Virus record (IMG/VR): IMGVR_UViG_3300008110_000029
DNA from: a virus
Lineage: Duplodnaviria > Heunggongvirae > Uroviricota > Caudoviricetes
Length of the DNA stretch: 64,000 nt
Direction: 5' to 3' (one strand)
The notes under the pieces are model-generated. The model ran no database searches, was not told the DNA's origin, and was given only the letters and a program-made list of their open reading frames with translations. How positions within the stretch are numbered: position 1 is the first letter of the stretch; each line of letters starts with the position of its first letter. Shown one piece after another: positions 1-64,000 of the stretch. The translations under genes were made by a program, and so were the position numbers.

Positions 1-598
1 TTGGTATGGTAAGGGTGTGTTTCCTTGGGAGCGCAGAGCTCATGGTGCAAACGAGCTAGCAGATTTTACTCCAGAGTTAGATTGGGAACCTTTACGTAAG
101 GAGATGAAAGAACATGGTGTACGAAATGCTACTCTTATGGCTATTGCTCCAGTTGAGTCTAGTAGTGTTGTTATTAATAGTACTAATGGAATAGAATTAC
201 CTATGAGCCTTATTTCTACTAAAGAGTCAAAGGCAGGATCATTTACACAGGTAGTTCCCGAGTATCATAGATTAAAAAACAAATATCAATTAATGTGGGA
301 ACAGCGTGACTGTTCTGGATATCTAAAAACAGCAGCAGTGTTAGCTGCCTATGTAGATCAAAGTATTAGTACCAATACATTCTACAATCCAGCACATTTT
401 ATAGATCGTAAAGTTCCAACTACATTAATTGCTAAAAACTTAATGCAAGCTCACATGTGGGGTTTAAAAACTTTCTATTATAGTTTGATTAACAAACAAG
501 GTAGTAAAGCACAAGAAGAAAAAGTTCAGGAAGTCGTTAATTATAATGGCTACCATAATGAAGAATTAGAAGATGATTGCGAGGCATGTAAACTATGA
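1..598 (+). CDS. nrdA: Ribonucleotide reductase class Ia alpha subunit, C-terminal fragment (gene begins upstream of the window)
   Basis: The ORF runs from the window edge. The C-terminal tail '...EELEDDCEACKL' matches the NrdA redox-active Cys-x2-Cys tail (E. coli '...DCESGACKI'). It lies directly upstream of nrdB, overlapping it by 4 nt. Confidence 0.8.
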   Translation, partial: WYGKGVFPWERRAHGANELADFTPELDWEPLRKEMKEHGVRNATLMAIAPVESSSVVINSTNGIELPMSLISTKESKAGSFTQVVPEYHRLKNKYQLMWEQRDCSGYLKTAAVLAAYVDQSISTNTFYNPAHFIDRKVPTTLIAKNLMQAHMWGLKTFYYSLINKQGSKAQEEKVQEVVNYNGYHNEELEDDCEACKL

Positions 599-11505: not shown

Positions 11506-11514
11506 GGATTAAGA

Positions 11515-19662: not shown

Positions 19663-19753
19663 GAATACACATATGTGTGTATAATGTTGCGGTACCTAAT
19701 GGGCCGCAACATTGAGCATAAAGCTCATATTCTTACTTTAAAAGGAGATTAAT

Positions 19754-42848: not shown

Positions 42849-43201
42849 TGTCTTGGGGTTATCATATTATGTTAGATTGTGCCGGTTGTGATTTAAAAAA
42901 AATTAAAGATAAAGATCACATATGGGCATTTGTATATACATTAATAAAACGTGTTGAAATGGAAGCGCACGGAAAAATGATCATTGAAAATTTATTACCA
43001 GGAACAGACAATGAAGGATATAGTGTATTACAAATGATTACTACAAGTAATATAAATTGTCATTTTGTAAACAAGACTGCTGATGCTTATATTGATTTGT
43101 TTAGCTGTAAAGAATTTAAAGCAGAAATAGTTATTGCTACTGTTAAAGAATTTTTTAATCCAACCAGCATCAAATTAAACTTTGTAGAAAGACAGGCTTA
43201 G
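42848..43201 (+). CDS. speD: S-adenosylmethionine decarboxylase-like protein (small pyruvoyl SpeD/SpeH class)
   Basis: 117 aa. 'GYHIMLDCAGCD' aligns with SpeH 'GRHLIAELYGCD'. 'GYSVLQMITTSNINCHF' aligns with '[20 protein letters not shown]'. 'AYIDLFSC' aligns with 'AAVDVFTCG'. Confidence 0.6.
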   Translation: MSWGYHIMLDCAGCDLKKIKDKDHIWAFVYTLIKRVEMEAHGKMIIENLLPGTDNEGYSVLQMITTSNINCHFVNKTADAYIDLFSCKEFKAEIVIATVKEFFNPTSIKLNFVERQA

Positions 43202-45510: not shown

Positions 45511-46314
45511 ATGATCAAAGGTATAAACGAACAACCCTACTTTAACATGGAACCATATTTGGATATGGCCAAGTTTGAGCAACTACAACCTGAAATTTTA
45601 ACTGGTTTTGCTCTAGCACGAGAAAATGCTAAAGAAGGCACTTGGATGAAGCCCGGTTTTAATTTTGATAATATGAGTTATAAACTAAGCTGGAAACCAA
45701 TATATCAAGCCATGGATGAATTTATGGAGTTGCCTAAAGATGATCCTATATATCAAACCGGCATAAAACTAATGCCTACAGATTTTAAAAACTTCCAACA
45801 GCGTAATAAGTTTACTCGTTATTTGAAAATGGCAATGGGTGCCTACGATCCTTACATTTACTATTACTTGTGGGAAGAAGGCTCATGGGATGATCGAACA
45901 GCACCACGCAAACTAACTCCAGAAGCAGAACATTTTCCTAACGTAGTTAAGTGGGTTGAAAGCCTAGTAGGCACAGTGTTCAAAGACATTGGCCGTGTTA
46001 TATTCTTCCATTGTGAAGCCGATGGCATTCCGTTTGAACACAGAGACTTAGATGCTAAGAATGGTATCGATGTTGTTAAGCCACATTGCAACGAGTTTAT
46101 ACATGTTCGACCAAATACAAAAAAAGCCATGTACTTATGGGATCCAGAAACAAAAAATAAAACATATCTTAATACTAGAGCCGCCTGGTGGAATGACGTA
46201 GATTGGCATGGCGGAGAACGTATTATGGAACAGAGCTATAGCCTACGCATTGACGGCAAATTTACAGAAGCATTTCGTAAACAACTAGGAGTAGATCACC
46301 TTGACAGCTATTGA
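45511..46314 (+). CDS. Cupin-like protein, aspartyl/asparaginyl-beta-hydroxylase-like paralog family ('HxD...WHGG')
   Basis: 'IPFEHRDLDAKN' (H-x-D) and 'WWNDVDWHGGERI' (second His). Shared with the 60.1-63.6 kb array. Confidence 0.4.
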   Translation: MIKGINEQPYFNMEPYLDMAKFEQLQPEILTGFALARENAKEGTWMKPGFNFDNMSYKLSWKPIYQAMDEFMELPKDDPIYQTGIKLMPTDFKNFQQRNKFTRYLKMAMGAYDPYIYYYLWEEGSWDDRTAPRKLTPEAEHFPNVVKWVESLVGTVFKDIGRVIFFHCEADGIPFEHRDLDAKNGIDVVKPHCNEFIHVRPNTKKAMYLWDPETKNKTYLNTRAAWWNDVDWHGGERIMEQSYSLRIDGKFTEAFRKQLGVDHLDSY

Positions 46315-46876: not shown

Positions 46877-47124
46877 TCTTTTTCTTTTTCTATCATCATT
46901 AACACAAAGGTATTAATATTTTTCCAAGATTTAATAAATTCTTCGTTATTATCTAACCATTGTTTAAATTCATCACTTTCTAAATAATCTTTATAATCTA
47001 CATGGTCAATGTTTTTTATAAATTTGCTAATGCTATACATAATATCAGCCGGAGTATCCATTTCGTTTGTCATTGCAATTATGTTATAAATTTCTTCTTG
47101 AAGATTATTCATAAGAATTAACAA
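46867..47124 (-). CDS. Hypothetical acidic protein (85 aa)
   Basis: ORF coupled to the downstream rSAM gene. Confidence 0.3.
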   Translation of the reverse strand: MLILMNNLQEEIYNIIAMTNEMDTPADIMYSISKFIKNIDHVDYKDYLESDEFKQWLDNNEEFIKSWKNINTFVLMMIEKEKDYL

Positions 47125-51822: not shown

Positions 51823-52444
51823 ATATAATTGCTACTTGTAGAAAATCAGTATTTCCCTCGATAATTAGATTTAATTTTGTATCTAAAATCTGCTGTCTTA
51901 ATTCGTCGGCATTGAATGCTGCTAAGAGCGAATTGTAATAATCGTTTTTAAATAATTCGCTATCTTTTTCAGCCAATTGACCAACAATTTTTTTTGCAAT
52001 ATCTTTGTTTTTAGGACGAACCAAATCCATAATGAATACATTGTTTGAAATATTCTTTACACAGTTCCAAAAAATATTAGAATCATGTATGTGATGAAGT
52101 GTATTAGTTGATATTACGCAATCAGCAGAATCTTTAACATTTTTAAAATATTCGCATCTTAATCGTACTCCACTACTGATATTTTCTACAATAGTTTGTC
52201 CAAGTTCTATCATATACTCACTCGCGTCATAGCCGGTTATTAATAGGTCTGGATATTGCGTCTCTAATGCAAATAGATACGATCCAGTACCACATCCCAA
52301 ATCGACTACTTTACCTTTTTTGAGATTGACATATTTTTTATAAAAGTCAAGAAATCCCTTGATTCCATAATCTCTACTACCGTGATGAAACGCCAATACT
52401 TGATTTTTTTCATTCATTATTTCTGGTTCTAAATGACGTTGCAT
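51806..52444 (-). CDS. Class-I SAM-dependent methyltransferase
   Basis: 'KVVDLGCGTGSYLF' motif I. An acidic residue follows beta-2 ('ITGYDASEYM'). Confidence 0.7.
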   Translation of the reverse strand: MQRHLEPEIMNEKNQVLAFHHGSRDYGIKGFLDFYKKYVNLKKGKVVDLGCGTGSYLFALETQYPDLLITGYDASEYMIELGQTIVENISSGVRLRCEYFKNVKDSADCVISTNTLHHIHDSNIFWNCVKNISNNVFIMDLVRPKNKDIAKKIVGQLAEKDSELFKNDYYNSLLAAFNADELRQQILDTKLNLIIEGNTDFLQVAIIYGQIQ

Positions 52445-53031
52445 ATATTGGATCCTATAATAATTCTATCTTCATTCGAAAGATTGGGTTGAGTTTTATG
52501 ATTTATATACCCGGGAAATATTATTAACATTCCTGTTTTCACGGTAATTTCTTGCTCAAATGATTTGTAACGCATTTGATCAAAATCATATGGCTGGTGT
52601 TTTAGCAAGATAGCATTGGGATGTTCGAATATAATATTTCCACCATTTGTAGGATGCTGAAGATAAAAACTAGCAGTCATGTGTATAGGACTATGATTAT
52701 GCATATCAATAAATGATTCTTGTTCGTATCGATTCACCCACATTTCATAAACACCTGGTTTACCTGATTTACTATATCCTAATCTGTTCCAATATGTTCC
52801 TGCTTCTTTGTTTATAAATTCAGTTAATTCAATAAAGGATGGATCTAAATTTAAATCTCGTTTTATGTTATATGAACATATACCTTTTCCGCGTATGCTC
52901 GATTGATTATTCTTTTTGGTTTCTTCAAACCACGGTTGTATCTTAGGGAATAACATATTCTGAAGTTGTTTAATATCTCCAGAATACTCTGCTGTATGAA
53001 TCAGTATGGGAAAAATTTCTTTAGTTGGCAT
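52429..53031 (-). CDS. Cupin-like protein (putative Fe(II) oxygenase/hydroxylase)
   Basis: His-rich 'MHNHSPIHMTASF' and 'IIFPGYINHKTQPN' suggest a double-stranded beta-helix metal site. Confidence 0.3.
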   Translation of the reverse strand: MPTKEIFPILIHTAEYSGDIKQLQNMLFPKIQPWFEETKKNNQSSIRGKGICSYNIKRDLNLDPSFIELTEFINKEAGTYWNRLGYSKSGKPGVYEMWVNRYEQESFIDMHNHSPIHMTASFYLQHPTNGGNIIFEHPNAILLKHQPYDFDQMRYKSFEQEITVKTGMLIIFPGYINHKTQPNLSNEDRIIIGSNICNVI

Positions 53032-53048: not shown

Positions 53049-53681
53049 ATGTATCTTACTTATGTTGACTTACCGCCCGTACCAAAATATATTAGAGATC
53101 AAATAATTCACATAGTAGAACACCCTATTCATAATTTTCAAAACTCGGCATCATTCGTCGAATATGCTAGAAAAAATCTAAACATAGAAGCAAGCCAAGA
53201 AATTATTGATGCTATTGTTGGTATAGAATATAATTCGCAGGATTCTTTGGGTTATCATTTATCTGATGCTTTCAAATATTTTGATGATCTAGCAAATTTT
53301 GATTTTTTAGAAGTTAACGATGAAATTAAAAAATGGGTTAGAGAGAATATCGATCTTGATGTAATACACATTAGCATACAATCAATGCATAGTGGAAAAA
53401 CAATCACCCCACACATTGATGAAATGAGAAATTACGCTTACAATTATATCATAGAAACAGGAGGAGATAAAACCTCCACATGTTTTTGGACTCCAAAGGT
53501 AGAATACAGTCATTTAAAAACATATGCTCAAACAGTATTTCCATATGACAGATTAGATTTAGTAGAAAAAATTAAAATAAAAGAATGCGCCTGGCACAAA
53601 CTAGATACTAAAACTATTCATAGTGTAGAAAATTTAGATCCACATAAAAAAAGAATTTCGTTGTCACTGAGTTTTTTATGA
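53049..53681 (+). CDS. Cupin-like protein, 'HxD...H' paralog family
   Basis: 'ITPHIDEMRNY' (H-x-D) and 'KTIHSVENL'. Confidence 0.35.
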   Translation: MYLTYVDLPPVPKYIRDQIIHIVEHPIHNFQNSASFVEYARKNLNIEASQEIIDAIVGIEYNSQDSLGYHLSDAFKYFDDLANFDFLEVNDEIKKWVRENIDLDVIHISIQSMHSGKTITPHIDEMRNYAYNYIIETGGDKTSTCFWTPKVEYSHLKTYAQTVFPYDRLDLVEKIKIKECAWHKLDTKTIHSVENLDPHKKRISLSLSFL

Positions 53682-54862
53682 CCAATATTATATTTCCCTA
53701 TTCAAAAAATAATCAACAACCGATTCGTAAAATAGAAGAATATACTGACTATGGGTTTATCGAAAATGGTAATCAGTATTTAGATCTAAGTTTGGGTGCC
53801 TGCGGTTGTTTTCCCCTAGGATTTAAAAGAAAAGACATTATTGATTTCGTATCTCTTAGAATGATCAATAATCCATTTTGCGGCGGAGAATTCTACACAA
53901 CAAATGATGCTGTGTTAGAATTAACCGATCGAATTAGTAAAATGAGCGGAGGATACAAAAGTGCATTTGCATTGAGTGGAAGCGATGCGATCGAAGGAGC
54001 ACTAAGGTTAGCTCAAATGTATAACAAAAAAAATAAATTTTTGGGATTTCGAAAATCTTATCATGGAAGTACATTTTTAAGTAGCAGTGTCAGTGATGCT
54101 ACTTATATGACAGATGTATTCGGAAAAGATTCAAGATGTGTCATCAGCGATTACAACTTAGAGATGATTACTGAAGATTTATGTGCCGTAGTTGTAGAAA
54201 CTGCCAGTTGGCAAAACGGATTATACGATCCTGGTGAAAACTTTTGGAACGGGCTTAGAGAAGAATGCACTCGCAAAAATATAGTTCTTATTGTTGATGA
54301 CATCGCCGTGTGCGGAGGAAAGACTGGTTCTTTTTTTGGTTGGACTGGAAGAATAATTCCAGATATTTTTACAATGGGTAAAGCATTAACCGGAGGTTAT
54401 TTTCCTCTCAGTGCCGTTTGTGCTAATCAAAAAATATTTGATAAAATTAAATATGATGTTTTTGTGCATGGCTTTAGTTACAGTTTCAATCTAAGTGGGA
54501 TTTATTCTGCATTAGAATATATGAATATATTAGATCGAGAACAGTTATTAATTAATCAACCTAAATTAGAAAGATGGGGGAAATTAATGTGTCAGCGATT
54601 TAAAGACAAAGAATTAATTAAGGATTATAATAATTATGGACTTTTATTTAATCTAGTATTACTAAACGAAAAGCCCATGGACAGTACATTTGAAAGATTT
54701 TTATATCAATATGGGATTAATGCCGGAATGTGGAACGAAGGTGGAACTGGAGTTTTGTTTGTTATTCCTCTCGATGCACCTTCCGATTGGTTTGAAGACA
54801 TTGAATATCGATTTTTACAAGCCTTAACTGATTACAGATCGATTTCTACCCTCACGAGATAG
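53678..54862 (+). CDS. PLP-dependent aminotransferase, class III
   Basis: 'VLIVDDIAVCGGKTGSFFGW' parallels 'DEVQTGFGRTG'. 'FTMGKALTGGYFPLSA' contains the PLP-Lys. Confidence 0.78.
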   Translation: MTNIIFPYSKNNQQPIRKIEEYTDYGFIENGNQYLDLSLGACGCFPLGFKRKDIIDFVSLRMINNPFCGGEFYTTNDAVLELTDRISKMSGGYKSAFALSGSDAIEGALRLAQMYNKKNKFLGFRKSYHGSTFLSSSVSDATYMTDVFGKDSRCVISDYNLEMITEDLCAVVVETASWQNGLYDPGENFWNGLREECTRKNIVLIVDDIAVCGGKTGSFFGWTGRIIPDIFTMGKALTGGYFPLSAVCANQKIFDKIKYDVFVHGFSYSFNLSGIYSALEYMNILDREQLLINQPKLERWGKLMCQRFKDKELIKDYNNYGLLFNLVLLNEKPMDSTFERFLYQYGINAGMWNEGGTGVLFVIPLDAPSDWFEDIEYRFLQALTDYRSISTLTR

Positions 54863-55864
54863 ATCCAAAGTTAAACAGTGGATTCCTGCTTCCCAGAATA
54901 ATCCGTGGCGTTGTGGTACTACATGACAGTTAATGCTGTAACGTTCCATGACTTTAAAAATACCGGGCTGATGATTGCTGAATAAAATATTGTTGCTGTC
55001 AATAACTAAAACATTACTATCAAAAAACACTTCTTGTGCATACCCTTTCCATTCGGTTAGCCACTTATCGATCCAAGCATCACTAAATTTGCCTGTTGTG
55101 TTTCGATAGTCATTGATAAATTTTGTATCGTCGAATTTCTCAAAATGATCTTGTAGCTCTACTATCTGCTTATTATGCAACGGTTCTGGTACCCAAGTTT
55201 TGTTTACGCAAAAAATTAGATCATCGTTAGTCATAAACCATCCGTGATCTATGTGTCCAAAACCTTTCTGATGTGTATTGCCTGCATCAATAATAGTATT
55301 TTCTGGAAGATTACGTTTCATCCATTCGAGTCCAAGAGTATTTCCCGGTCCTTTGATATTAGTAATTAATTTGTCTCCGCACTTAAACATTGTAGCTGTA
55401 TGCCATAGAACTTGATTCTTTAATTGCTCGTGATAGACATATTCACCGTTTGCCCACCATCTATCTACTAGTGTATCTAATTTTGGTGGAGGCATGCTTA
55501 TCCAATTATAACCTCTATCAAAAAATTCCTTAAAAATATGTGTGTAATTTATGCTGTCTAAATATCTATCAGGCATACTAGTATATGTTTGATAGATGGT
55601 ATTTCCATAAACTAGATATTGATCTCGGGGAACAATAGGAGCAGTTGCATATTTAATTTTAAAATTGCTTAGATCAATATCTTCTTTAAAATAGGTTACA
55701 TCGGGACGATATACTTTAATTCCCATTTTAATCAAATAGTCTGCTAGATTATCTAAATCTTCTTTAGTTTCGATAAAAATTTGAGATAATTTATTTCGAC
55801 TATGATCAACAAAACAGTTACCTACTATAATTTCTTTAAGCGGATCCCAATTAGTATAAATCAT
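54824..55864 (-). CDS. Amidinotransferase-superfamily enzyme (guanidino-group modifying)
   Basis: 'TNWDPLKEIIVG' at the N-terminus and a C-terminal catalytic-Cys context 'EAGIHCLTLD', as in glycine/inosamine amidinotransferases. Confidence 0.55.
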   Translation of the reverse strand: MIYTNWDPLKEIIVGNCFVDHSRNKLSQIFIETKEDLDNLADYLIKMGIKVYRPDVTYFKEDIDLSNFKIKYATAPIVPRDQYLVYGNTIYQTYTSMPDRYLDSINYTHIFKEFFDRGYNWISMPPPKLDTLVDRWWANGEYVYHEQLKNQVLWHTATMFKCGDKLITNIKGPGNTLGLEWMKRNLPENTIIDAGNTHQKGFGHIDHGWFMTNDDLIFCVNKTWVPEPLHNKQIVELQDHFEKFDDTKFINDYRNTTGKFSDAWIDKWLTEWKGYAQEVFFDSNVLVIDSNNILFSNHQPGIFKVMERYSINCHVVPQRHGLFWEAGIHCLTLDLSREGRNRSVIS

Positions 55865-57348
55865 TTGTTTAACTTTTTTTCTACATATTCTCGCTCTCTC
55901 GGACCTGTTCGATTTTTAGGAGCATCAAAATATTTTACTTTATCTAATACTTCTTGAAGAGGAATATCGGGATAGGTATAATCAGCAAAAGTCCAGATGC
56001 TAGATTTCATTATAATCTCATCTCTTACAATTTTAACATAAAAGTCATCGACTATTTTACACGCATCTGCATAAGTCATGTTATCATTTTCCCATATAAC
56101 TTTATCGTTAGCTTGCTTCACTCGTGTTTCGGCCGATCCAAAAAATTTGACTTCCTCTGGAGGTTCTGGCTCGGGTATATCTGAATGTCGATACCCATAT
56201 TTTCCCATATCTTTTGATATAGTAGATTGCACATCATTAGTTTCTGATCCGTGTATTTCTAAAGGAAATGCATGGACACATTCACCTTGCCAATTTTTTT
56301 CAATCCAATTAAAAGTTTTTATCTGACTTTCTAATGTTTCGTGCGGAAGTCCTACTACTATTCCGAGTGCCCCTCTGTAAGGACCATTGCTTAAAAAATA
56401 ATTTTTTACTTCGATTAATCCATCTCCGAGTTTTTCCGGTCTCATTCCCTTTCCAATAAATTTTGCTGTTTCATAATTCATAGTTTCTATACCATAAAAA
56501 TGTCCAACAAATCCCATCTTTAATAAAGGTTCCCAATCTCTTCTTCTAGAAACTAAAAGGTCTGCACGAATAAATCCTGCAAAAATAGTATCAAGATTTA
56601 ATTGTTGTATAGCATCTGAATATTTTTCTATTTTTTCACTATGATCATTAAAAGTTTCATCGGCCATGTAGTAATTTTTGATTCCCCACCTTTCCCAATT
56701 TTCTTTCATATCTTCCTTAAAATCTTCTGCCGATCGAGTATAATCTCCCTTAACACCAAGAACCGGATGATTACAATATGGACATTGAAATTTACAACCT
56801 CTAGAGCACTCTATCGTCAACCATTCCCAGGGTTGTAGATCATCTCGATCTTGATATTTTATTGTGAGGCGATTCATAGGAAAAGCAGGATAATGTTTAT
56901 TTGCGCTAATAACTTTTTTCTTTCCAAGATATAACGGATCAAGGGTTATTTTATTATTCGAATTTCCTACAAAAGATCTGGCAAGTTCTAATACTGCTAA
57001 TTCTCCGTAGCCGTGAATATAGTAATCGACTTTTTTAGTATTAATTAGAGGTTTACTTTGTCCTCCTACAATTATTCTAATGTAAGGATAAGAAGATTTA
57101 ATCCAGTCAATAAAAATATCAACGTCGTCGCTCCATGCATTAAAAAAAGAACTGAAACCAATAAAAATAGTTTTAGAACTTATACGCATTTTAGCTACTT
57201 CTTTTAATTCTTCTAGCGTGAATGATTTAACGTAATCTATTACCTCTACATCCCATTCGTGTTCGCGAAGAAATGTGGCTATCCTATATGGGCCTGCCAA
57301 TCTCCTTAATGCCAAGTCGTGAACACAAAAAATTAATGCGTGATTCAT
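55861..57348 (-). CDS. B12-binding radical-SAM enzyme, copy 4
   Basis: 495 aa. 'TIECSRGCKFQCPYCNHP'. N-terminal B12-binding-like region. Confidence 0.75.
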   Translation of the reverse strand: MNHALIFCVHDLALRRLAGPYRIATFLREHEWDVEVIDYVKSFTLEELKEVAKMRISSKTIFIGFSSFFNAWSDDVDIFIDWIKSSYPYIRIIVGGQSKPLINTKKVDYYIHGYGELAVLELARSFVGNSNNKITLDPLYLGKKKVISANKHYPAFPMNRLTIKYQDRDDLQPWEWLTIECSRGCKFQCPYCNHPVLGVKGDYTRSAEDFKEDMKENWERWGIKNYYMADETFNDHSEKIEKYSDAIQQLNLDTIFAGFIRADLLVSRRRDWEPLLKMGFVGHFYGIETMNYETAKFIGKGMRPEKLGDGLIEVKNYFLSNGPYRGALGIVVGLPHETLESQIKTFNWIEKNWQGECVHAFPLEIHGSETNDVQSTISKDMGKYGYRHSDIPEPEPPEEVKFFGSAETRVKQANDKVIWENDNMTYADACKIVDDFYVKIVRDEIIMKSSIWTFADYTYPDIPLQEVLDKVKYFDAPKNRTGPREREYVEKKLNK

Positions 57349-57764
57349 GTTTCTAAAATCTCTTTTAAATATTCTTCACTCCAGTGCGTATAATAACTAG
57401 ATTTAGATAATTTATCTCTCGCTTTATTCAGTTCGTCTCTCCACTGGCACAGAATTAAATTGTGTTCTCCATTATTAGTTTGTATACCATTAATGTAGGT
57501 TATTCTATTTTTAGGATCTGGTAAGAAAACCATCTCTGGATAAATGCTGTTATATTCTTTCGCAATTTTAAATATTTCTTCTTCGGAATAGTCATTCGGT
57601 AATTTATAAATGATGAGCTCAAAATTCCAAGGAGGTGGATCGATATCTGATCCATCAGTTTCAATAATTTCATACTTAGAACCTTTAGCATACGGACAAA
57701 TGCTAAATCCACCAAGTTCATCTCTAGGTTGGGTAATACGATCAATCCAATTGTCAATATCCAT
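57345..57764 (-). CDS. Hypothetical protein (139 aa)
   Basis: ORF, ATGA coupling. Confidence 0.35.
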   Translation of the reverse strand: MDIDNWIDRITQPRDELGGFSICPYAKGSKYEIIETDGSDIDPPPWNFELIIYKLPNDYSEEEIFKIAKEYNSIYPEMVFLPDPKNRITYINGIQTNNGEHNLILCQWRDELNKARDKLSKSSYYTHWSEEYLKEILET

Positions 57765-58371
57765 TTTGTACCGTTATACTTGAAATAAAGTTTCTACCAT
57801 TGATACTCTGTAAAATTAAATCAACAGTCTTTGTAAGATCTTCAATTGTAATTATGCTATTGGTATCCATTACCTTATTATATAATTCTATACCATTCTG
57901 ATTTTCTGTGTCATAGGGATTATAAAAATTAGTTTGACAAACACCTGGCATAATAACTATGCTTTTACATTTACTACCGCTATGATTTATATCCCAGCTG
58001 ACTTTATTAATAGCATATTTTTCTTCTCCGTAGTTTTTAAGCCATGGAAAATTTTTAGGTATATCTGCTAATGGTTCTGCAGCTATAGAACTTGTACTTA
58101 TAATAAAATGAGGATCATTCCAATGTTGTTGGTGCCATAATTTCATTAGTTCTACTTGAGAATAATAATGATAGGCATTATTGATAAACAAATCACAATC
58201 TTTTGTATAAGAAATAATAATATCTTGATTAGATCTATCACCGATATCGAAACCGTTGTCTTTGCTAAATCCTTTAACTCTACAATTTAAATTAAGAAAA
58301 TAATCATATAATCCTTTGCCAATCCCGCTGGTATGACCAGTAATTGCTATATTATTAAATTTCATAAACAT
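57754..58371 (-). CDS. Short-chain dehydrogenase/reductase (SDR)
   Basis: 'IAITGHTSGIGKGLY' is the T-G-x3-G-x-G cofactor motif. Confidence 0.5.
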   Translation of the reverse strand: MFMKFNNIAITGHTSGIGKGLYDYFLNLNCRVKGFSKDNGFDIGDRSNQDIIISYTKDCDLFINNAYHYYSQVELMKLWHQQHWNDPHFIISTSSIAAEPLADIPKNFPWLKNYGEEKYAINKVSWDINHSGSKCKSIVIMPGVCQTNFYNPYDTENQNGIELYNKVMDTNSIITIEDLTKTVDLILQSINGRNFISSITVQNGY

Positions 58372-58900
58372 CTTCCTTAAGAAGTTCTAATAACACAACA
58401 ACTCTAGGAGATGATGTGTGATTCCAAACCGAATGAGGAGTTTCTACATCTAATAAAAAACATTCCCCCTCGAACCATCTTCCTCGATAATCTCCTTCTG
58501 AGAATCCGACATCTCCGAGAGGAATAATTAGAGGAACGTGACAAATAACATAATTTTCGTGACCTTCTTCTGTATCAGTGTGCATCGGAACAACTCCGCC
58601 TGCGTCTAAAACACTGTAACCTGCACTACGACAAGTATCACCAAAACTTTTAACTAGTTCAGTTAATATTGGGTATCGAGATAAATTTTTATCTTCCCAT
58701 TTGCCCATAATTTTAATTACAAGCATTTTCCATTTATTTTGAGGATCTAAACTGTTTCCAATATATTCGCTGTAGAGGGGAATGTTACCAGTATCGTAAC
58801 CGTGAACAGTCACAAATTCATTTTTTAATTTTGGTATAAATTTATTAATTTTATCTTTAAAAATAAATTTGTTTATGTCATAGATCATTCCACTCTCCAT
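58355..58900 (-). CDS. Cupin-fold protein
   Basis: 'GVVPMHTDTEEGHENYVICHVPLIIPLGDVGFSEGDYRGRWFEG' is a cupin-type His/Glu metal site. Confidence 0.4.
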   Translation of the reverse strand: MESGMIYDINKFIFKDKINKFIPKLKNEFVTVHGYDTGNIPLYSEYIGNSLDPQNKWKMLVIKIMGKWEDKNLSRYPILTELVKSFGDTCRSAGYSVLDAGGVVPMHTDTEEGHENYVICHVPLIIPLGDVGFSEGDYRGRWFEGECFLLDVETPHSVWNHTSSPRVVVLLELLKEDVYEI

Positions 58901-60134
58901 CCATGTGCCACGAAGGAAGTGAATCTTTATAAATCTCCGATGCCTTATTTACAGTAACAATAATGGCATTGGGATTATATTCTTTAATTTTTTTGAACAA
59001 TAGATTCTCATTATATATTCTGTGTCTTAATGGAACAAAAGGTGCTACGGGATCGTAATTAAAAATATGACTAAGATGCACAATAGTAGAAGGCACTGCA
59101 TCTAGCCAATCGCTTACTTCGAGATTTTTGTTAAGAACTAAATCTTGATGAGAAAATTCGAATTTAACGACTTTACTAATGTCACTCCAAATTACAGGAT
59201 CAATCCGTTGTTCAACACCAGTTAACGTTATCCACTCTTGTTTTTTATTTTTTAAAAAACTTGATCTTTTATTAACATACGTTTTTACAAATTCTAAATA
59301 ATTCAACCCGTCCCAATTCTTTATAATATATTCCATACACTCTAAAGCAAACAAATTATAATCTACAAAACGAACAACGGTATTTTTATCATATCCATAT
59401 TCTAAAAGATATTCTATAAACTGCAATCCACTTGCTTGAATTACTAATTGTTGTATTGGTGTACTACAATTAATTTTTATAACTTCTTCTGTATTGTAAG
59501 GATAGAATAATGTTTGTGAGGCAACCTCGTTTTTGCCGTATAGATAATCGCACGATTTTATAAACGCAGGTTCATAATTAGGATAATAGTATCTTTTGTT
59601 TTTTCTGAAACGATCTGCAAATGGTTTCACAAATTTATTATTAGCAAACGCAACACTAAGAATGTTCCAGCCGTGCCATTTGTGTTTATATTGACGTTCG
59701 GTATCGCCACCGGTTACCCAGATAGGAGTATAATCGTCGTGAATATTTTCTTCACTGCGTCTGGGTGCTATCTGTGTATGAGCTGAATAATATTCAAATT
59801 TTCCTATAACAGGACAACCTAATTCTTTGTAAGTTTTTAGATTGATTATGTAGCATTGTTCGTGTAATTCATAATAACCATCATCCCTATCTGGTATATG
59901 ACCCCAGATAAAAAATTCTTTGCCGCTGTAGACTTCCTTTTCGACTTCATGGAAAAATTCATCACCGTTGATGAACTCTGTGCCTGTACTTAATACAACT
60001 GCATGTGTATATTCTTTGGCGGCTTCTTGTAACATAGCATCTTCATCTAATCCTTGAATAATATTAAATCCGTGACCAAGAATCTTACTATAGACTATAT
60101 CTGAAGATCCTTCGGGTGTATTAAATTTTACCAT
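58878..60134 (-). CDS. Hypothetical protein (418 aa)
   Basis: ORF in operon context. No motif. Confidence 0.4.
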   Translation of the reverse strand: MVKFNTPEGSSDIVYSKILGHGFNIIQGLDEDAMLQEAAKEYTHAVVLSTGTEFINGDEFFHEVEKEVYSGKEFFIWGHIPDRDDGYYELHEQCYIINLKTYKELGCPVIGKFEYYSAHTQIAPRRSEENIHDDYTPIWVTGGDTERQYKHKWHGWNILSVAFANNKFVKPFADRFRKNKRYYYPNYEPAFIKSCDYLYGKNEVASQTLFYPYNTEEVIKINCSTPIQQLVIQASGLQFIEYLLEYGYDKNTVVRFVDYNLFALECMEYIIKNWDGLNYLEFVKTYVNKRSSFLKNKKQEWITLTGVEQRIDPVIWSDISKVVKFEFSHQDLVLNKNLEVSDWLDAVPSTIVHLSHIFNYDPVAPFVPLRHRIYNENLLFKKIKEYNPNAIIVTVNKASEIYKDSLPSWHMDGEWNDL

Positions 60135-60768
60135 ATTGATTATTATAACATCTTACTAACATTTCACAAAACTCGGCAGTTCTATGTCCCAATATAATGT
60201 TAGCAATCATATGCACTCTTGGTTTACTGCTACGATTAAAAACGGCATGTTTTTTGCTTATATTGATCATAATTATCTTTCCTTCTTTCCAAGGAACTTT
60301 CTTATCTTCTATAAACATCTCGCAATTATTTGGATGAGCTATAGCAATATTAATTGGTAGAATAGATAATAATGGATCCATATCCAGTGGAATCTCGCCG
60401 TCGGTGTGCCAGTTTATATTACTCCACGGTGCCAATTTCATAAAACGTATTCTTGTATATCTTTCTGCAGGAAATTGATTCTTCCAAAAATCTGTAATTA
60501 CAGGACACTTGTATGCTAGATCAGTATATTGATAAGGAGCATGATATTCATTATAACCATACCTGTCGGCAGTGTATGTTTTATCAATACCCAATCCGTG
60601 TAAACAACAACCGCTCCATCCTTCGCTATATCCTTCTCTATATTCTTGATAATGAGGCTCTGCTTCTAATGCCTGTTGTTTCCAGATATCTGCATTAAAA
60701 GAAATATCTAATTCTAACCAAGGTATATCTGATCTTAATATTTTACGTGCTTGTTCTATGCTATCCAT
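60121..60768 (-). CDS. Cupin-like 'HxD...H' family paralog
   Basis: 'NINWHTDGEIPLD' and 'ISKKHAVFNRS'. Confidence 0.4.
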   Translation of the reverse strand: MDSIEQARKILRSDIPWLELDISFNADIWKQQALEAEPHYQEYREGYSEGWSGCCLHGLGIDKTYTADRYGYNEYHAPYQYTDLAYKCPVITDFWKNQFPAERYTRIRFMKLAPWSNINWHTDGEIPLDMDPLLSILPINIAIAHPNNCEMFIEDKKVPWKEGKIIMINISKKHAVFNRSSKPRVHMIANIILGHRTAEFCEMLVRCYNNQYGKI

Positions 60769-61334
60769 GATTTAAAAATTTCTAAAGATTCTGCTATTGT
60801 TAGTCCCGCTTCTGGATTCTCTTTCCTACTAATGTCACAACTAATTAACCAACGCGGTTCCCAAACATTATTGTGAATGTTATGTGGAATGCCAGTTTGC
60901 ACGATTGTAGGCCATTTAACCACGTGAGAATATAAATGATTAACTTGGTTAGGGTGGTATTGTATGTAAGGTGTACCTGCTTGGGTATCCGTAGTTTCAA
61001 ATGGTTGCTCGCCCTCTTTAAGTTTGTACCAATGCATCATACTACCAGCACCCTGTACACACCAATTCATAACAGCACGGTCTGCGTCAGGAGAATGTCC
61101 GTCAATGTGTATACCGCATTGCTTGCCTTTAGGTGTGTAAAAAATAAGAGGAGGATAAGTTATTACTAATCCTAAACTATCAAGCCAGGATCGAAACTCA
61201 TCAGATACGTCACTATGATTAGCAAACCATATTTCTGTTTGGTCGCCTGTTTGATTTAATATAGCAGGGTTTACTAACGGATGAGATATCGGTATAGATA
61301 AATCGATAGCATAATTAGTGTTCACTTTTGCCAT
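60756..61334 (-). CDS. Cupin-like 'HxD...H' family paralog
   Basis: 'CGIHIDGHSPDAD' and 'MMHWYKL'. Confidence 0.4.
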   Translation of the reverse strand: MAKVNTNYAIDLSIPISHPLVNPAILNQTGDQTEIWFANHSDVSDEFRSWLDSLGLVITYPPLIFYTPKGKQCGIHIDGHSPDADRAVMNWCVQGAGSMMHWYKLKEGEQPFETTDTQAGTPYIQYHPNQVNHLYSHVVKWPTIVQTGIPHNIHNNVWEPRWLISCDISRKENPEAGLTIAESLEIFKSWIA

Positions 61335-61885
61335 CCAAAGAAATTAAACATATATTTTGTTTCAAGTCCCATATTCAGTCCGCCATGCCAATTTTGCCAA
61401 TCATCCCAACGATAAACATCTCCTTGTTTAGGATCGTATATAGCATGATTTTCAATTATTGATACCTGACCAAAGCTAGGCTCGCATATATAGCAAGTAT
61501 AATGAACAATTGGTCCTTTTGATAACCATTCTTTTTCCTGGTTGGGCATCTTATAATCGGGATGCCAAGGAACTATATACCCTGGAGGAACGGCACTAAC
61601 CCAACAGCCTGCAGGTTCACAATTTATCCATTTAGAAAAATTTTCAACCCATACATTAGAAAAATGCTCATAAGGCAAATAATCAATCCATTTTGCTGCG
61701 GCATTATTTTTATCATAACCTGCATTTTCCCAAATCTTAATTAGTTTTTCTACTTTGGGATTTCCTAAATGTATATCATCTTCCTGATCGTTTCCTCTTA
61801 ATCTAGGAGGTATTAATTTAAGATGATTTATTAAATCTTCCCATTTCATTGTTTTATTTGAATTTCCAATGTATGTGGCCATCAC
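61322..61885 (-). CDS. Aspartyl/asparaginyl-beta-hydroxylase-like cupin paralog
   Basis: 'IVPWHPDYKM' and 'WQNWHGGLNMGLETKYMFNFFGW'. Confidence 0.45.
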   Translation of the reverse strand: MMATYIGNSNKTMKWEDLINHLKLIPPRLRGNDQEDDIHLGNPKVEKLIKIWENAGYDKNNAAAKWIDYLPYEHFSNVWVENFSKWINCEPAGCWVSAVPPGYIVPWHPDYKMPNQEKEWLSKGPIVHYTCYICEPSFGQVSIIENHAIYDPKQGDVYRWDDWQNWHGGLNMGLETKYMFNFFGWQK

Positions 61886-62427
61886 TTTATTCCTAAAAAA
61901 TGAAACATAAATTGATCATGGAGCCCGCAGTTACCACCTGCATGATAATCTAAGTAATGGTCCCACTGATATGTATTACCAGAAAGTTCGCAATGAAAAC
62001 ATTGATTTTTACAAACAAAAACTCCTCCCGGATAAGGGTGACTGATAAAAGTACTGAACCGAATTACTTCTCCCTGAGATAGATATTCTTCAATGTTATC
62101 ATCGATGTCTTGATGTATTGGAGCATATTTTCCTGGACGTATTTTACTAATCCATGCTCTAGCACATTTCATTCCAACAAATTTTTCAAATTCTATAACA
62201 CACGAATTATCAAAATGTTTTATAGGATAATAATTAAACCACTCAACAGTGTCAACTTTATTATAGCCCGCATCAATCAACATTTGGATGTTATTGTCAA
62301 ATCGACCATCAAAGTTCTTATAAAAGTCTACACCAAACGCTCTCCGATCGCCTTCTTCAATACATAAAGAGTCAATTATACTATCCCATTTTCCTGCAAA
62401 AAAATTACCTATAAACTTAATTGACAT
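61882..62427 (-). CDS. Aspartyl/asparaginyl-beta-hydroxylase-like cupin paralog
   Basis: 'YAPIHQDIDDN' and 'HYLDYHAGGNCGLHDQFMFHFLG' are co-linear with 61322..61885. Confidence 0.45.
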   Translation of the reverse strand: MSIKFIGNFFAGKWDSIIDSLCIEEGDRRAFGVDFYKNFDGRFDNNIQMLIDAGYNKVDTVEWFNYYPIKHFDNSCVIEFEKFVGMKCARAWISKIRPGKYAPIHQDIDDNIEEYLSQGEVIRFSTFISHPYPGGVFVCKNQCFHCELSGNTYQWDHYLDYHAGGNCGLHDQFMFHFLGIK

Positions 62428-62461
62428 TTAATCCTCATATCTTATTACATATTCTTTAAAT

Positions 62462-62878
62462 TTATTCTTGATCGTAATGAGGAGTTAATAAAACATTATA
62501 TCTTTCCGGACTTTTAGGATATGTGAAGTCAATAGTTATATCATGATGAGCATCGACCGGACCTGTTTGAAGATATAGGCCTCCCCCGATAATTTGTTTA
62601 AATGGCAAAGATTCTAAAATTTCTATTAATTCTGGCATTAATTCTTTGATTCCGGGTCGATAGTAAGTTGGATCGTTATCGGTGAGATCTTGAAGTTTAT
62701 CTTCTGTAAAAATTTGAGAAGCATCTCTCCAATCGGTCACTGCCTTTCTAACAACTAATGGACATAATAAAGCATTAGGTATAATATTTTTATCCAAATA
62801 ATTCTTCTTAACATATTCTATGAGTAAATCTTGATCAGGAATTTTACATTTAATATCAATGGGAGTGTATATTATCAT
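62462..62878 (-). CDS. Hypothetical protein (138 aa; possible cupin paralog)
   Basis: 'GPVDAHHDITIDF'. Confidence 0.3.
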   Translation of the reverse strand: MIIYTPIDIKCKIPDQDLLIEYVKKNYLDKNIIPNALLCPLVVRKAVTDWRDASQIFTEDKLQDLTDNDPTYYRPGIKELMPELIEILESLPFKQIIGGGLYLQTGPVDAHHDITIDFTYPKSPERYNVLLTPHYDQE

Positions 62879-63612
62879 AATAATTCAAAGTTTTCTGGAA
62901 GCATTTTATTAAGTGTGTCTTTAGATTCTTTTTCGATATTAAATTTAACAAATGTTTTCCCATACTCAAACTTATTTATAAGCCCACTCTTATCAAAATG
63001 ATTTAATAACGGACTTAATTTCTCATCAAAAATAAACCTCGCATGTTCGTCAGTAATATCATTAAACTTAATGCATACCGGAACGCTGTTTTTAAGAATA
63101 TTGTTTTTTAATAACTGTCTAACAACTAATTGTATTCTTGTGACTCGTCCAACATTCATCGCTGTATGCCTAATCCCGGCATTCATGTTGTACCAAAATC
63201 CGTCTGTTGTTAACTTATACAACACGTTGTTTTCTAAATCTATCAAAAACGATTCATCAGAACATAAATTTAGATGATACCGATCATCTATATCAGCGTG
63301 TCCCTGGTAACATTTACCAGGTTCTAAAATTATTATCCTAGCTTCACCGATCGGTTCATTGATTGTTTTTAAAATAGATTCCCAAATAGTATTTTTAAAT
63401 TCCTCTTTAATTTTCCAAGGATCATAAAAGAAAGAATCTGTTGGTTGATTGATTGTATATCTAAAGTTATCACTGGGAATTTCTTTCAATGCAATTTCGA
63501 TTAAATCTAAAGAAACTTGATAGTTAGTTTTTGTTAACATGAAATATTTATATGCTACTATAACCCAGTTAAATAGTTCATGAACTATAATCATAATACA
63601 TTTTGTATGCAT
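62875..63612 (-). CDS. Cupin-like 'HxD...H' family paralog
   Basis: 'KCYQGHADIDDRYHL' and 'NAGIRHTAMNVG'. Confidence 0.4.
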   Translation of the reverse strand: MHTKCIMIIVHELFNWVIVAYKYFMLTKTNYQVSLDLIEIALKEIPSDNFRYTINQPTDSFFYDPWKIKEEFKNTIWESILKTINEPIGEARIIILEPGKCYQGHADIDDRYHLNLCSDESFLIDLENNVLYKLTTDGFWYNMNAGIRHTAMNVGRVTRIQLVVRQLLKNNILKNSVPVCIKFNDITDEHARFIFDEKLSPLLNHFDKSGLINKFEYGKTFVKFNIEKESKDTLNKMLPENFELL

Positions 63613-64000
63613 CCTTTTACAGGATTAGCAACACGTGAAGACGGCGCAATTAAAGTCATTCGTAAACAAGTTTTAAACGGAGAACGTCCTCCGGAGTGTG
63701 AACCTTGTTTTAGTTTAGAAGATCAAGGGGTTGAAAGTTTAAGACAGCGACACATTAAAGGAGAAATTCCAGAAGCACGTATTAATCTTTATCCTAATTC
63801 ATTAAAGAAAATGGATCAAGATTTTACAATGCCTTTCGAAATTCCAACAATAGAGATTAAATTGAATAATCTTTGCAATTTAAAATGTCGAATGTGCAAC
63901 CCTACAGATAGCACTAGTTGGAATGATTGGAAACAGGTTGAGGAATTTTACGACAAAGAAGGAAATTTTATTTCTAAAAATGTAAGAAAACTTAATCTTA
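63607..64000 (+). CDS. Radical-SAM enzyme, N-terminal part (continues beyond the window)
   Basis: 'MHPFTGLATREDGAIKVIRKQVLNGERPPECEPCFS...IKLNNLCNLKCRMCNPTDS' carries a Cys-x3-Cys-x2-Cys motif. It is divergent from the minus-strand block. Confidence 0.65.
   Translation, partial: MHPFTGLATREDGAIKVIRKQVLNGERPPECEPCFSLEDQGVESLRQRHIKGEIPEARINLYPNSLKKMDQDFTMPFEIPTIEIKLNNLCNLKCRMCNPTDSTSWNDWKQVEEFYDKEGNFISKNVRKLNL

What the first reader, a model, noticed from the sequence alone, without database searches (positions are those of the whole stretch)
60121..63612. Array of six consecutive cupin-like 'HxD...H' paralogs (aspartyl-beta-hydroxylase-like), with further copies at 45511, 52429 and 53049
Each 180-245-aa protein carries an H-x-D followed 60-90 residues later by a His in a Gly-rich context (for example 'PWHPD...NWHGGLNMG', 'IHQDIDD...YHAGGNCG', 'FEHRDLD...DWHGGERI'). 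This is the arrangement of Fe(II)/2-oxoglutarate Asp/Asn beta-hydroxylases. About ten divergent copies imply multiple site- or residue-specific hydroxylations of one substrate, or of many host targets.
Basis: partly seen in the sequence, partly recalled or inferred. Interest (0 to 1): 0.7.

Follow-up and report, generated by a model that had tools for sequence, protein, structure and literature searches.

The report
Phage operon of divergent 2OG oxygenases
A run of neighbouring genes in an uncultured freshwater phage encodes many very different iron/2-oxoglutarate oxygenases, an enzyme type already known to occur in several copies in aquatic phages, and their target is still unknown.

The parts
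60121..60768 (-). A: 215-aa Asp_Arg_Hydrox-family Fe/2OG oxygenase (H121-x-D123, H174, R184)
   Evidence: Pfam PF05118 at 52.9 bits (cut-off 22.6), E 4.8e-14. H121, H174 and R184 are invariant in 32 A/J-family sequences. The identical protein lies on contigs of up to 211,818 bp.
60756..61334 (-). B: 192-aa Pfam-less DSBH oxygenase (H76-x-D78, H151, R161)
61322..61885 (-). C: 187-aa Pfam-less DSBH oxygenase, paralog of D (H108-x-D110, H167, K177)
61882..62427 (-). D: 181-aa paralog of C, with Gln in place of the family's 2OG-binding Lys
   Evidence: 30% identity to C, E 7e-28. The HMMs of C and D merge. The window copy reads HDQFMF where 51/53 family members have K.
62462..62878 (-). E: truncated 138-aa remnant of a 208-220-aa Pfam-less protein; HHD kept, distal His and Arg lost
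   Evidence: 194-bp deletion relative to otherwise identical L002. In the full-length family, H111, D113 and H171 are present in 86/86 sequences and R/K180 in 86/86. Links to other families are only faint: 2OG-FeII_Oxy_3 in 2 of 36 members, and hhalign to A/J at 13-23% probability with the catalytic residues in register, the distal His off by one in the E-J alignment.
62875..63612 (-). F: divergent Asp_Arg_Hydrox-like oxygenase with a ~70-aa C-terminal extension (H105-x-D107, H149, R159); likely start at 63540
   Evidence: PF05118 at 17.2 bits, below the 22.6 cut-off. 15 of 17 family members hit PF05118, best 3.8e-5. hhalign to A and J is about 55%.
58355..58900 (-).
   Evidence: PF05118 at 77.5 bits, E 1.3e-21. 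Weak OlsC and LpxO matches lie far below their cut-offs. Human AspH matches at E 0.006 with H, H and R aligned. JGI names it an aspartyl/asparaginyl beta-hydroxylase.
58878..60134 (-). K: conserved 418-aa protein of unknown family, always between A and J; the window copy lacks 26 conserved residues
   Evidence: No Pfam or PDB match. Present in every related locus that extends past A. 78-bp in-frame deletion relative to L002.
53049..53681 (+). I: 210-aa member of a large Pfam-less family homologous to B (H122-x-D124, H191, R202)
   Evidence: 512 representative clusters at E<=0.001. H122, D124, W182, H191 and R202 are the only invariant columns in 53 sequences of 20-44% identity. No member has a Pfam hit. 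hhalign B-I gives probability 95.6%, E 1.1e-8, with all four residues in register.
52429..53031 (-). H: 200-aa 2OG-FeII_Oxy_5 protein with H111-x-H113, H178, R189
   Evidence: PF13759 at 59.5 bits (cut-off 27). phrog_81 '2OG-Fe(II) oxygenase' at 2.5e-33. TIGR02466 at 59.6 bits, below its 62.5 cut-off. HxH is invariant in 9/9 sequences.
45511..46314 (+). G: 267-aa highly conserved protein with H177-x-D179, H233, R246; DSBH fold plausible but unverified
   Evidence: No Pfam or PDB hit. 378 IMG/VR relatives; the 80 best loci returned are 75-92% identical. Motif residues are invariant in a shallow alignment. The weak hits of the G HMM fall on A-type and E-type proteins, and hhalign G-E is 8% over 105 columns; an earlier, shallower G-E alignment had HxD and the distal His in register.
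54824..58371 (-). Downstream genes of the same overlapping operon: SDR/epimerase-like (57754-58371), 139-aa ORF, B12-radical SAM (55861-57348), amidinotransferase homolog (54824-55864)
   Evidence: Pfam hits. The amidinotransferase matches HsvA at 3.4e-21 and StrB1 at 2.1e-19. All neighbouring genes from F to the amidinotransferase overlap by 4-23 nt, except at the E deletion.

Best explanation
The region encodes a set of Fe(II)/2-oxoglutarate-dependent oxygenases with the double-stranded beta-helix fold. There are at least eight intact and well supported copies (A, B, C, D, F, H, I, J), one plausible copy (G) and one broken copy (E). They belong to at least six sequence families that are only remotely related to each other.

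Each enzyme would bind Fe(II) through the conserved H-x-D(/H)...H residues. It would bind the C5 carboxylate of 2-oxoglutarate through the conserved Arg/Lys 9-13 residues after the distal His, and use O2 to oxidise a C-H bond. These steps are inferred from conserved residues and fold, and were not measured.

Seven of the oxygenase genes sit in one translationally coupled minus-strand operon, F-E-D-C-B-A-K-J-SDR-orf139-B12 rSAM-amidinotransferase. The operon lies inside a low-GC accessory island of an uncultured freshwater tailed phage with a genome above 200 kb.

My inference is that they act as regiospecific tailoring oxygenases on one shared substrate or pathway. The other island enzymes would belong to it: six radical SAM proteins, a class-III aminotransferase, a methyltransferase and a SAM decarboxylase. 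I think a small amine- or guanidino-bearing metabolite or a surface glycan or lipid is the more likely substrate than protein Asp/Asn residues. The nature of the substrate is the weakest step.
For: Family and fold:
- A, J and H pass Pfam; F is weak.
- B-I profile homology is 95.6%.
- J aligns with human AspH at H679, H725 and R735.

Catalytic residues:
- H, D, H and R/K are invariant in every family, including 140 I-family and 86 E-family sequences.
- In both models HxD ends a strand, the distal His starts a strand, and R/K starts the next strand.

Functional unit:
- The order F-[E]-C/D(1-3 copies)-B-A-K-[J-type 0-2 copies] is kept in 27 related loci at about 45-70% protein identity.
- Neighbouring genes overlap by 4-23 nt.

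Small-molecule-type partners:
- An amidinotransferase homolog of HsvA, StrB1, SxtG and AGAT.
- Aminotran_3, AdoMet_dc, a methyltransferase, and B12 and other radical SAM proteins.
- PIG-L, SPASM radical SAM and Trp halogenase genes in related loci.

Viral origin:
- IMG/VR contigs.
- BFVD neighbours labelled 'uncultured Caudovirales phage'.

Similar gene sets in T4-like aquatic phages are reported in PMC3037559, PMC7029224 and PMC12801897.
Against: - No substrate or product is identified.
- The fold of E, G, F, D and I was not predicted, and E and G link to the others only weakly.
- Triad geometry could not be measured, because model coordinates are not exposed.
- D carries Gln at the 2OG-binding Lys position.
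- In this window E is frameshifted, K has lost 26 conserved residues, and the SPASM radical SAM gene that L001 carries upstream of F lacks 78 bp. The pathway may therefore be partly decayed in this genome, or these may be assembly artefacts.
- In cyanophage S-SCSM2R an amidinotransferase and a 2OG oxygenase were detected in the virion proteome (PMC12801897), which could point to protein or virion substrates instead.
- SPASM radical SAM enzymes in the neighbouring part of the island often act on peptides.
Confidence: 0.5

Rival explanations
1. One reading: the proteins are Asp/Asn beta-hydroxylases that hydroxylate several sites of one protein, or many host proteins, as AspH does on EGF-like domains.
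For: A and J pass Pfam Asp_Arg_Hydrox and F is a weak member. J aligns with human AspH with the catalytic residues matched. Asp/Asn beta-hydroxylase is annotated as a core gene of pelagimyophages (PMC7029224).
Against: Only 3 of about 10 proteins belong to that family. C is structurally nearest to prolyl-hydroxylase-like enzymes. The closest curated models for J are the lipid hydroxylases OlsC and LpxO, though far below their cut-offs. No AspH consensus site occurs in any frame of the window. The operon partners are small-molecule-type enzymes. PF05118 members act on lipids and small molecules as well as proteins (established knowledge of LpxO and OlsC).
Confidence: 0.12
2. The oxygenases modify a peptide or protein other than at Asp/Asn. 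The target could be a tail-fibre or virion protein, or a ribosomally made peptide, processed together with the SPASM and B12 radical SAM enzymes of the island in a RiPP-like or virion-maturation pathway.
For: The island starts right after a tail-fibre-like ORF at 38072-39001 (the N-terminal motif is recognised from my own knowledge). SPASM radical SAM genes lie next to F in related loci. C resembles viral collagen prolyl and lysyl hydroxylases. A 2OG oxygenase and an amidinotransferase were found in the virion proteome of S-SCSM2R (PMC12801897). A hypervariable host-recognition island with radical SAM cassettes is described in PMC7029224.
Against: No collagen-like G-X-Y repeats were found in the window or in 28 related loci. 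There is no intergenic room for a precursor-peptide gene in the tightly overlapping operon. The only small ORF examined, L001:1228-1386, is a charged helical 52-mer unlike a RiPP precursor. The amidinotransferase, class-III aminotransferase and SAM decarboxylase are small-molecule enzymes.
Confidence: 0.2
3. The copies are independent auxiliary genes with generic roles proposed for cyanophage 2OG oxygenases, such as draining or sensing host 2-oxoglutarate under nitrogen stress, or AlkB-like nucleic-acid repair. They would not be parts of one pathway.
For: Sullivan et al. 2010 (PMC3037559) report 1-5 2OG-Fe(II) oxygenase genes in 14 of 16 cyanomyophages and propose these roles. H belongs to the same PHROG (phrog_81) as the cyanophage proteins.
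Confidence: 0.1
4. Several copies are non-catalytic cupin-fold proteins, such as ligand binders or anti-defence factors like the vaccinia C10/C16 PHD2-like domains, or are decaying passenger genes.
Against: H, D, H and R/K are strictly invariant across tens to hundreds of homologs in each family, which argues for retained catalysis. The ORFs are kept intact at 45-70% identity across loci.
Confidence: 0.06

Closest known systems
Aspartyl/asparaginyl beta-hydroxylase family (Pfam PF05118; human AspH, bacterial LpxO and OlsC)
   Same: A and J score above the Pfam threshold. J aligns with AspH His679, His725 and Arg735. F is a divergent relative. All have the DSBH fold and an H...H...R(+10) arrangement.
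   Different: They are small single-domain proteins of 181-215 aa, without the TPR or membrane parts of AspH, and have HxD rather than AspH's HxG. Scores against the LpxO and OlsC equivalog models are far below cut-off. B, C, D, E, G, H and I are not members.
Multi-copy 2OG-Fe(II) oxygenase genes of T4-like cyanomyophages and pelagimyophages (Sullivan 2010, PMC3037559; Zaragoza-Solas 2020, PMC7029224; S-SCSM2R, PMC12801897)
   Same: Aquatic tailed phages carry several DSBH oxygenase genes in variable islands near tail-fibre genes, together with radical SAM cassettes, amidinotransferase, speD, pstS and bilin reductase-type auxiliary genes. Their function is unresolved.
   Different: This window has about ten copies, seven of them among eight consecutive overlapping genes. 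Four families lack any Pfam or PHROG model. B, C, G and I give no tblastn match, and two tested DNA stretches (1-20000 and 58000-64000) give no megablast match, in 50,697 GenBank phage records. The order is conserved rather than hypervariable.
Prolyl-4-hydroxylase-like 2OG oxygenases (PiuC/PKHD-type, PBCV-1 vCPH, bacterial P4H; Pfam 2OG-FeII_Oxy_3)
   Different: Sequence identity is 9-16% and there is no Pfam hit. No collagen-like or other proline-rich candidate substrate was found.
Tailoring 2OG oxygenases of secondary-metabolite clusters that also hold amidinotransferases, aminotransferases and radical SAM enzymes (for example the streptomycin, saxitoxin and cylindrospermopsin pathways; my own knowledge)
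   Different: The cluster is encoded by a virus. No core scaffold enzyme (NRPS, PKS, cyclitol synthase or glycosyltransferase) was identified in the window. The product is unknown.

Membership tests
Fe(II)/2-oxoglutarate-dependent oxygenase superfamily (DSBH) | Double-stranded beta-helix core fold | tested here: met
Fe(II)/2-oxoglutarate-dependent oxygenase superfamily (DSBH) | Conserved metal-binding H-x-D/E...H motif | tested here: met
   H and the distal H are invariant in every family: A/J 32/32, B 88, C/D 53/53, E 86/86, F 17-20, I 139-140/140, G 11-12/12. The acidic ligand D is equally invariant except in A/J, where it is D in 26/32 and G or A in 6. H has HxH...H. The window copy of E has lost the distal His.
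Fe(II)/2-oxoglutarate-dependent oxygenase superfamily (DSBH) | Basic residue about 10 positions after the distal His that binds the 2OG C5 carboxylate | tested here: met
   The residue is R at +10 in A, J, F and B, K at +10 in C, R/K at +9 in E, R at +11 in I and H, and R at +13 in G. All are invariant or nearly so. Exception: the window's D has Q.
Fe(II)/2-oxoglutarate-dependent oxygenase superfamily (DSBH) | Triad residues brought together in space; Fe(II)- and 2OG-dependent turnover | not testable with these tools
   Model coordinates are not exposed. Only secondary-structure positions could be checked: HxD at a strand end, His and R/K at strand starts.
Pfam PF05118 Asp_Arg_Hydrox | Score at or above the gathering threshold (22.6 bits) | tested here: met
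   Met for A (52.9 bits) and J (77.5 bits) only.
Pfam PF05118 Asp_Arg_Hydrox | Score at or above the gathering threshold, for B, C, D, E, F, G, H and I | tested here: not met
   F scores 17.2 bits, although 15 of 17 homologs give weak hits, best 3.8e-5. B, C, D, E, G and I give no hit at E<=1. H matches another family.
Protein Asp/Asn beta-hydroxylases in the functional sense (AspH-like) | Presence of a substrate with the EGF-type consensus C-x-D/N-x4-F/Y-x-C-x-C | tested here: not met
   There are zero matches in six frames of the window. Host proteins and the rest of the phage genome could not be searched.
Pfam PF13759 2OG-FeII_Oxy_5 / TIGR02466 | Score at or above the curated cut-off | tested here: met
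   H scores 59.5 bits on PF13759 (cut-off 27). TIGR02466 gives 59.6 bits, just below its 62.5 cut-off. phrog_81 matches at 2.5e-33.
Lipid hydroxylases LpxO / OlsC (NCBIfam equivalogs) | Score at or above the equivalog cut-off (500 / 450 bits) | tested here: not met
   J scores 17.6 and 32.9 bits. A scores 12.5 bits against OlsC.
Prolyl 4-hydroxylase-like (Pfam 2OG-FeII_Oxy_3) | Sequence-profile match | tested here: not met
   C and D give no Pfam hit. The resemblance is structural only. E homologs give 2 of 36 faint hits, E 0.026.

The most novel reading that the evidence does not exclude
The 38-64 kb island, which continues beyond the window end, would be a virus-encoded biosynthetic pathway. 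It would make or remodel a heavily oxidised, C-methylated and amidinated small molecule or surface component. It would use about nine dedicated Fe/2OG oxygenases, four of them from families with no described relative (B/I, C/D, E, G), plus at least six radical SAM enzymes. That would be a secondary-metabolite-like pathway carried as a conserved cassette by a widespread clade of uncultured freshwater jumbo phages.
Probability: 0.25. Interest if true: 0.75.

Novelty: new member of a known kind. Interest (0 to 1): 0.4.

Why it matters
Aquatic T4-like phages are known to carry several 2OG oxygenase genes, and nobody knows what they do. This locus is an unusually dense and syntenically conserved case: about ten copies, with seven among eight overlapping genes, kept in 27 related viral contigs. 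Its operon partners (amidinotransferase, B12-radical SAM, SDR-like) narrow the hypotheses towards a defined tailoring pathway. It also assigns a fold and a catalytic signature to protein families that current libraries leave blank. The I family alone has 512 representative clusters and no Pfam model. If the pathway makes a discrete product, it would be a rare example of virus-encoded complex chemistry. If not, the finding is simply a better annotation of ordinary phage accessory genes.

Tried and rejected
- **Public phage records.** Megablast of the window (1-20000 and 58000-64000) and tblastn of B, C, G and I against 50,697 GenBank phage records found nothing. The DnaK ORF hits only cellular-like DnaK genes.
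- **Family libraries.** PHROGs and NCBIfam give nothing for B, C, D, E, F, G and I.
- **Profile searches of the PDB.** Profiles for E, I and G found only noise.
- **All-vs-all hhalign.** Shallow family alignments gave low probabilities, except A-J and C-D (merged), F-A/J at about 55% and C/D-J at 42-47%. Deeper alignments raised only B-I, to 95.6%.
- **Pfam scans of whole families.** The 53 I-family, 36 E-family and 14 K-family members gave no useful family.
- **Fold library.** afdb50 was not available.
- **Collagen-like substrates.** No G-X-Y runs were found.
- **AspH consensus sites.** None were found.
- **RiPP precursor.** The operon has no intergenic space, and the 52-aa ORF beyond the window in L001 is unconvincing.
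- **Cellular island.** The idea that the window is a bacterial genomic island was rejected. Relatives are IMG/VR viral contigs, and the structural neighbours are 'uncultured Caudovirales phage' proteins.
- **K as another DSBH copy.** There is no evidence for this.

Full report
**What is there**

Positions 60121-63612 hold six consecutive minus-strand ORFs. I call them A (60121-60768, 215 aa), B (60756-61334, 192 aa), C (61322-61885, 187 aa), D (61882-62427, 181 aa), E (62462-62878, 138 aa) and F (62875-63612, 245-aa ORF). Alignment with 16 homologs puts F's start at M25, position 63540.

One more clear copy was not listed: J (58355-58900, -, 181 aa). It is separated from A only by a conserved 418-aa ORF of unknown family, K (58878-60134).

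**Is the motif more than chance?**

On its own, it is not. HxD followed 35-100 residues later by His occurs in 21 of 69 non-overlapping ORFs of the window. The same ORFs shuffled give 14.1 +/- 3.2. A stricter HxD-40..80-H-8..10-[RK] pattern gives 11 observed against 5.5 +/- 2.1.

Conservation makes the observation real. In every family alignment, the invariant columns include H, D, the distal H and a basic residue 9-13 positions after it. In the most divergent alignments they are nearly the only invariant columns.

| Family | Invariant residues | Sequences |
|---|---|---|
| B | H76, D78, H151, R161 | 88 |
| C/D | H108, D110, H167 (53/53); K177 (51/53) | 53 |
| E | H111, D113, H171 (86/86); R/K180 (86/86) | 86 |
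| F | H105, D107, H149, R159 | 17-20 |
| I | H122, D124, H191, R202 (138-140 of 140) | 140 |
| A/J | H, H, R (32/32); D (26/32) | 32 |
| G | H177, D179, H233, R246, in a shallow alignment | 12 |

In a 53-sequence I alignment at 20-44% identity, the four catalytic residues plus one Trp are the only invariant columns. H differs from the rest, with an invariant H111-x-H113...H178...R189.

**Are they paralogs of one another?**

Only partly. BLASTP links C to D (30% identity, 7e-28) and weakly A to J. Iterated HMM searches over all ORFs of the related loci merge only A with J and C with D. Profile-profile comparison adds three links:
- F with A/J, about 55% probability.
- C/D with J, 42-47%.
- B with I, once the I family was deepened: 95.6%, E 1.1e-8, 117 columns, with H, D, H and R in register.

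E and G give only low-probability alignments (E-J 23%, E-A 13%, G-E 3-8%). These alignments are colinear over about 100 columns, and where I inspected them they put the HxD and basic residues in register, with the distal His off by one in E-J.

**Family and fold**

Pfam places A (52.9 bits) and J (77.5 bits) in Asp_Arg_Hydrox. F is below threshold at 17.2 against 22.6 bits. H falls in 2OG-FeII_Oxy_5. B, C, D, E, G and I match nothing. PHROGs and NCBIfam add only phrog_81 and TIGR02466 for H, and far-sub-threshold OlsC and LpxO matches for J and A. Across the F family, 15 of 17 members hit Asp_Arg_Hydrox weakly, best 3.8e-5. J aligns with the human AspH catalytic domain at E 0.006, matching His679, His725 and Arg735.

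In both models HxD ends a beta-strand, the distal His begins one, and the R/K begins the next. That is the canonical placement. The coordinates are not exposed, so I could not measure the triad geometry.

Against predicted viral structures, B's best matches are uncharacterised proteins of 'uncultured Caudovirales phage' (TM 0.82-0.86 at 21-26% identity). Next come cyanophage proteins annotated as 2OG oxygenase, phytanoyl-CoA dioxygenase or (mis)annotated endonuclease V.

**The broken copy**

The window's E is a remnant. DNA of contig L002 is identical over the gene, except that the window lacks 194 bp. This shifts the frame and ends the protein at 138 aa, before the distal His and Arg. Contig L001 has a different 100-bp deletion (by the alignment) with the same right-hand end.

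Compared with six contigs of 99.7-100% identity, the window also lacks two other segments:
- 78 bp in K, removing 26 residues that are conserved in 13 homologs.
- 78 bp at 63656/63657, which in L001 falls inside the SPASM radical SAM gene called just upstream of F.

L001 has its own deletion in A, and L005 has deletions in F and K. Whether these are population variants or assembly artefacts cannot be decided here.

D in this genome carries Gln where 51 of 53 family members have the presumed 2OG-binding Lys.

**Context**

The window is viral. Relatives of B and G come from IMG/VR contigs of up to 270 kb. The identical A and J proteins lie on contigs of up to 211,818 bp. The left 38 kb carries typical aquatic-phage auxiliary genes:
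- RNR small subunit
- PstS
- a phosphate-selective porin
- GMP reductase/IMPDH-type enzyme
- DnaK
- a ferredoxin-dependent bilin reductase
- an S11 carboxypeptidase
- an endolysin-like domain

GC falls from 0.36-0.40 to 0.29-0.36 beyond about 38 kb. A tail-fibre-like ORF at 38072-39001 precedes the island. The island itself holds the following genes:
- six radical SAM genes, two with B12-binding domains and one with an HMPTM zinc ribbon
- an AdoMet decarboxylase
- a methyltransferase
- a class-III aminotransferase

It also holds an amidinotransferase homolog at 54824-55864, which matches HsvA at 3.4e-21, StrB1 at 2.1e-19, and SxtG and AGAT at about 1e-13.

From F down to the amidinotransferase, all twelve genes are on the minus strand. 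Neighbours overlap by 4-23 nt, and the only gap is the one the E deletion created. The order F-[E]-C/D(1-3 copies)-B-A-K-[J-type, 0-2 copies]...I recurs in all 27 related loci examined, at roughly 45-70% protein identity. Relatives add SPASM radical SAM, PIG-L and tryptophan-halogenase genes.

**Interpretation**

What is shown:
- A, J and H are members of 2OG-oxygenase Pfam families.
- B and C have the DSBH oxygenase fold.
- I is homologous to B.
- F is a divergent Asp_Arg_Hydrox relative.
- All families keep the metal and 2OG ligands.

What is inferred:
- Full-length E and G are also DSBH oxygenases. I put this at about 0.6-0.7 each.
- All copies are catalytically active.
- They serve one pathway.

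The conserved order, the translational coupling and the small-molecule-type partners make a shared tailoring pathway the best reading. I favour a small amine- or guanidino-bearing metabolite or a surface glycan or lipid over protein Asp/Asn. Only three copies are AspH-family. No AspH consensus site or collagen-like repeat is encoded nearby. The nearest curated relatives of J are lipid hydroxylases.

A protein or virion substrate remains a serious rival. SPASM radical SAM enzymes are present, the island adjoins a tail-fibre-like gene, and an amidinotransferase and a 2OG oxygenase were detected in virions of cyanophage S-SCSM2R (PMC12801897).

**Comparison with the literature**

Sullivan et al. 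2010 list up to five 2OG-Fe(II) oxygenase genes per genome in 14 of 16 cyanomyophage genomes and suggest roles in 2OG and nitrogen signalling or DNA repair (PMC3037559). Zaragoza-Solas et al. 2020 describe a large hypervariable host-recognition island with radical SAM cassettes in pelagimyophages, and list aspartyl/asparaginyl beta-hydroxylase among their core genes (PMC7029224).

The general phenomenon is therefore known and unexplained. Three things are new here:
- The density of copies: about ten, with seven among eight consecutive genes.
- The conserved order within an uncultured freshwater clade that gave no tblastn match for B, C, G or I, and no megablast match for the two DNA stretches tested, in GenBank phage records.
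- The assignment of fold and catalytic signature to families that no library describes.

I rate it a new member of a known kind, with moderate interest.

Noticed in passing
window 62466; 60089-60094; 63656/63657 (compare L001-L006): Against contigs that are 99.7-100% identical, the window has clean deletions of 194 bp (E, frameshift), 78 bp (K, in frame, removing conserved residues) and 78 bp (where L001 has a SPASM radical SAM gene called upstream of F). L001 and L005 carry different deletions in E, A, F and K. This is either deletion polymorphism concentrated in this operon or an assembly artefact.
   Followed up: partly
window 54824-55864 (-): A 346-aa ORF with no Pfam hit at E<=0.01 is a clear amidinotransferase homolog (HsvA 3.4e-21, StrB1 2.1e-19, SxtG, AGAT). 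It is the last gene of the oxygenase operon.
   Followed up: partly
L007:13815-14519, L013:13634-14362, L018:13622-14338, L019:14150-14866, L024:13903-14625, L028:13897-14619: A third Asp_Arg_Hydrox subtype (234-242 aa) in related phages has HxG or HxA instead of HxD. That arrangement is seen in human AspH (two-His site) and in 2OG-dependent halogenases. It is absent from this window.
   Followed up: no
L007:17863-19410; L009:17274-18887: Related phages carry a flavin-dependent tryptophan halogenase (Pfam 4.9e-90) next to the I homolog. In the same place the window has H (2OG-FeII_Oxy_5) plus a methyltransferase.
   Followed up: no
window 61882-62427 (-): D has Gln at the position where 51 of 53 C/D-family proteins have the Lys that probably binds 2OG. 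One relative (L013) shares this. It may alter co-substrate use or inactivate the enzyme.
   Followed up: partly
window 45511-46314 (+): G is far more conserved than the array genes. The 80 best of its 378 IMG/VR relatives are 75-92% identical, which suggests a core function in a broad phage group. It has no match in any family library or in the PDB.
   Followed up: partly
window 58878-60134 (-): K is a protein of unknown family (418 aa in this window, 385-472 aa in related loci) with very many invariant residues. It is present in every related locus that extends past A and always sits between A and the J-type genes. It has no Pfam, PDB or profile link to the oxygenases.
   Followed up: partly
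window 38979-40535, 40528-42138, 43198-44277, 47105-48898, 50761-51822, 55861-57348 (all -): Six radical SAM genes lie within 19 kb. The first two are tandem paralogs, two have B12-binding domains, and one has an HMPTM-type zinc ribbon. Related loci add three to five more, including SPASM types, just beyond the window end.
   Followed up: partly
window 7440-9772; 17713-19662; 21356-22036; 28253-29062: The phage carries PstS next to a phosphate-selective porin (Porin_O_P), a full-length DnaK about 69% identical to gammaproteobacterial DnaK, a ferredoxin-dependent bilin reductase and an S11 D-Ala-D-Ala carboxypeptidase. This is an unusual set of auxiliary genes and may hint at a Gram-negative host.
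   Followed up: no
window 1-38000 vs 38000-64000: GC drops from 0.36-0.40 to 0.29-0.36, and GC skew changes sign where coding switches mainly to the minus strand. The change starts right after a tail-fibre-like ORF at 38072-39001.
   Followed up: no
window 57345-57764 (-): A 139-aa ORF inside the operon has a weak match (E 0.0056) to the C-terminal part of the ferredoxin-dependent bilin reductase family. This may be chance.
   Followed up: no
L009:13717-13931: In L009 and L010 the place of the J-type gene is taken by two 35-aa called ORFs, probably remnants of a degraded gene.
   Followed up: no
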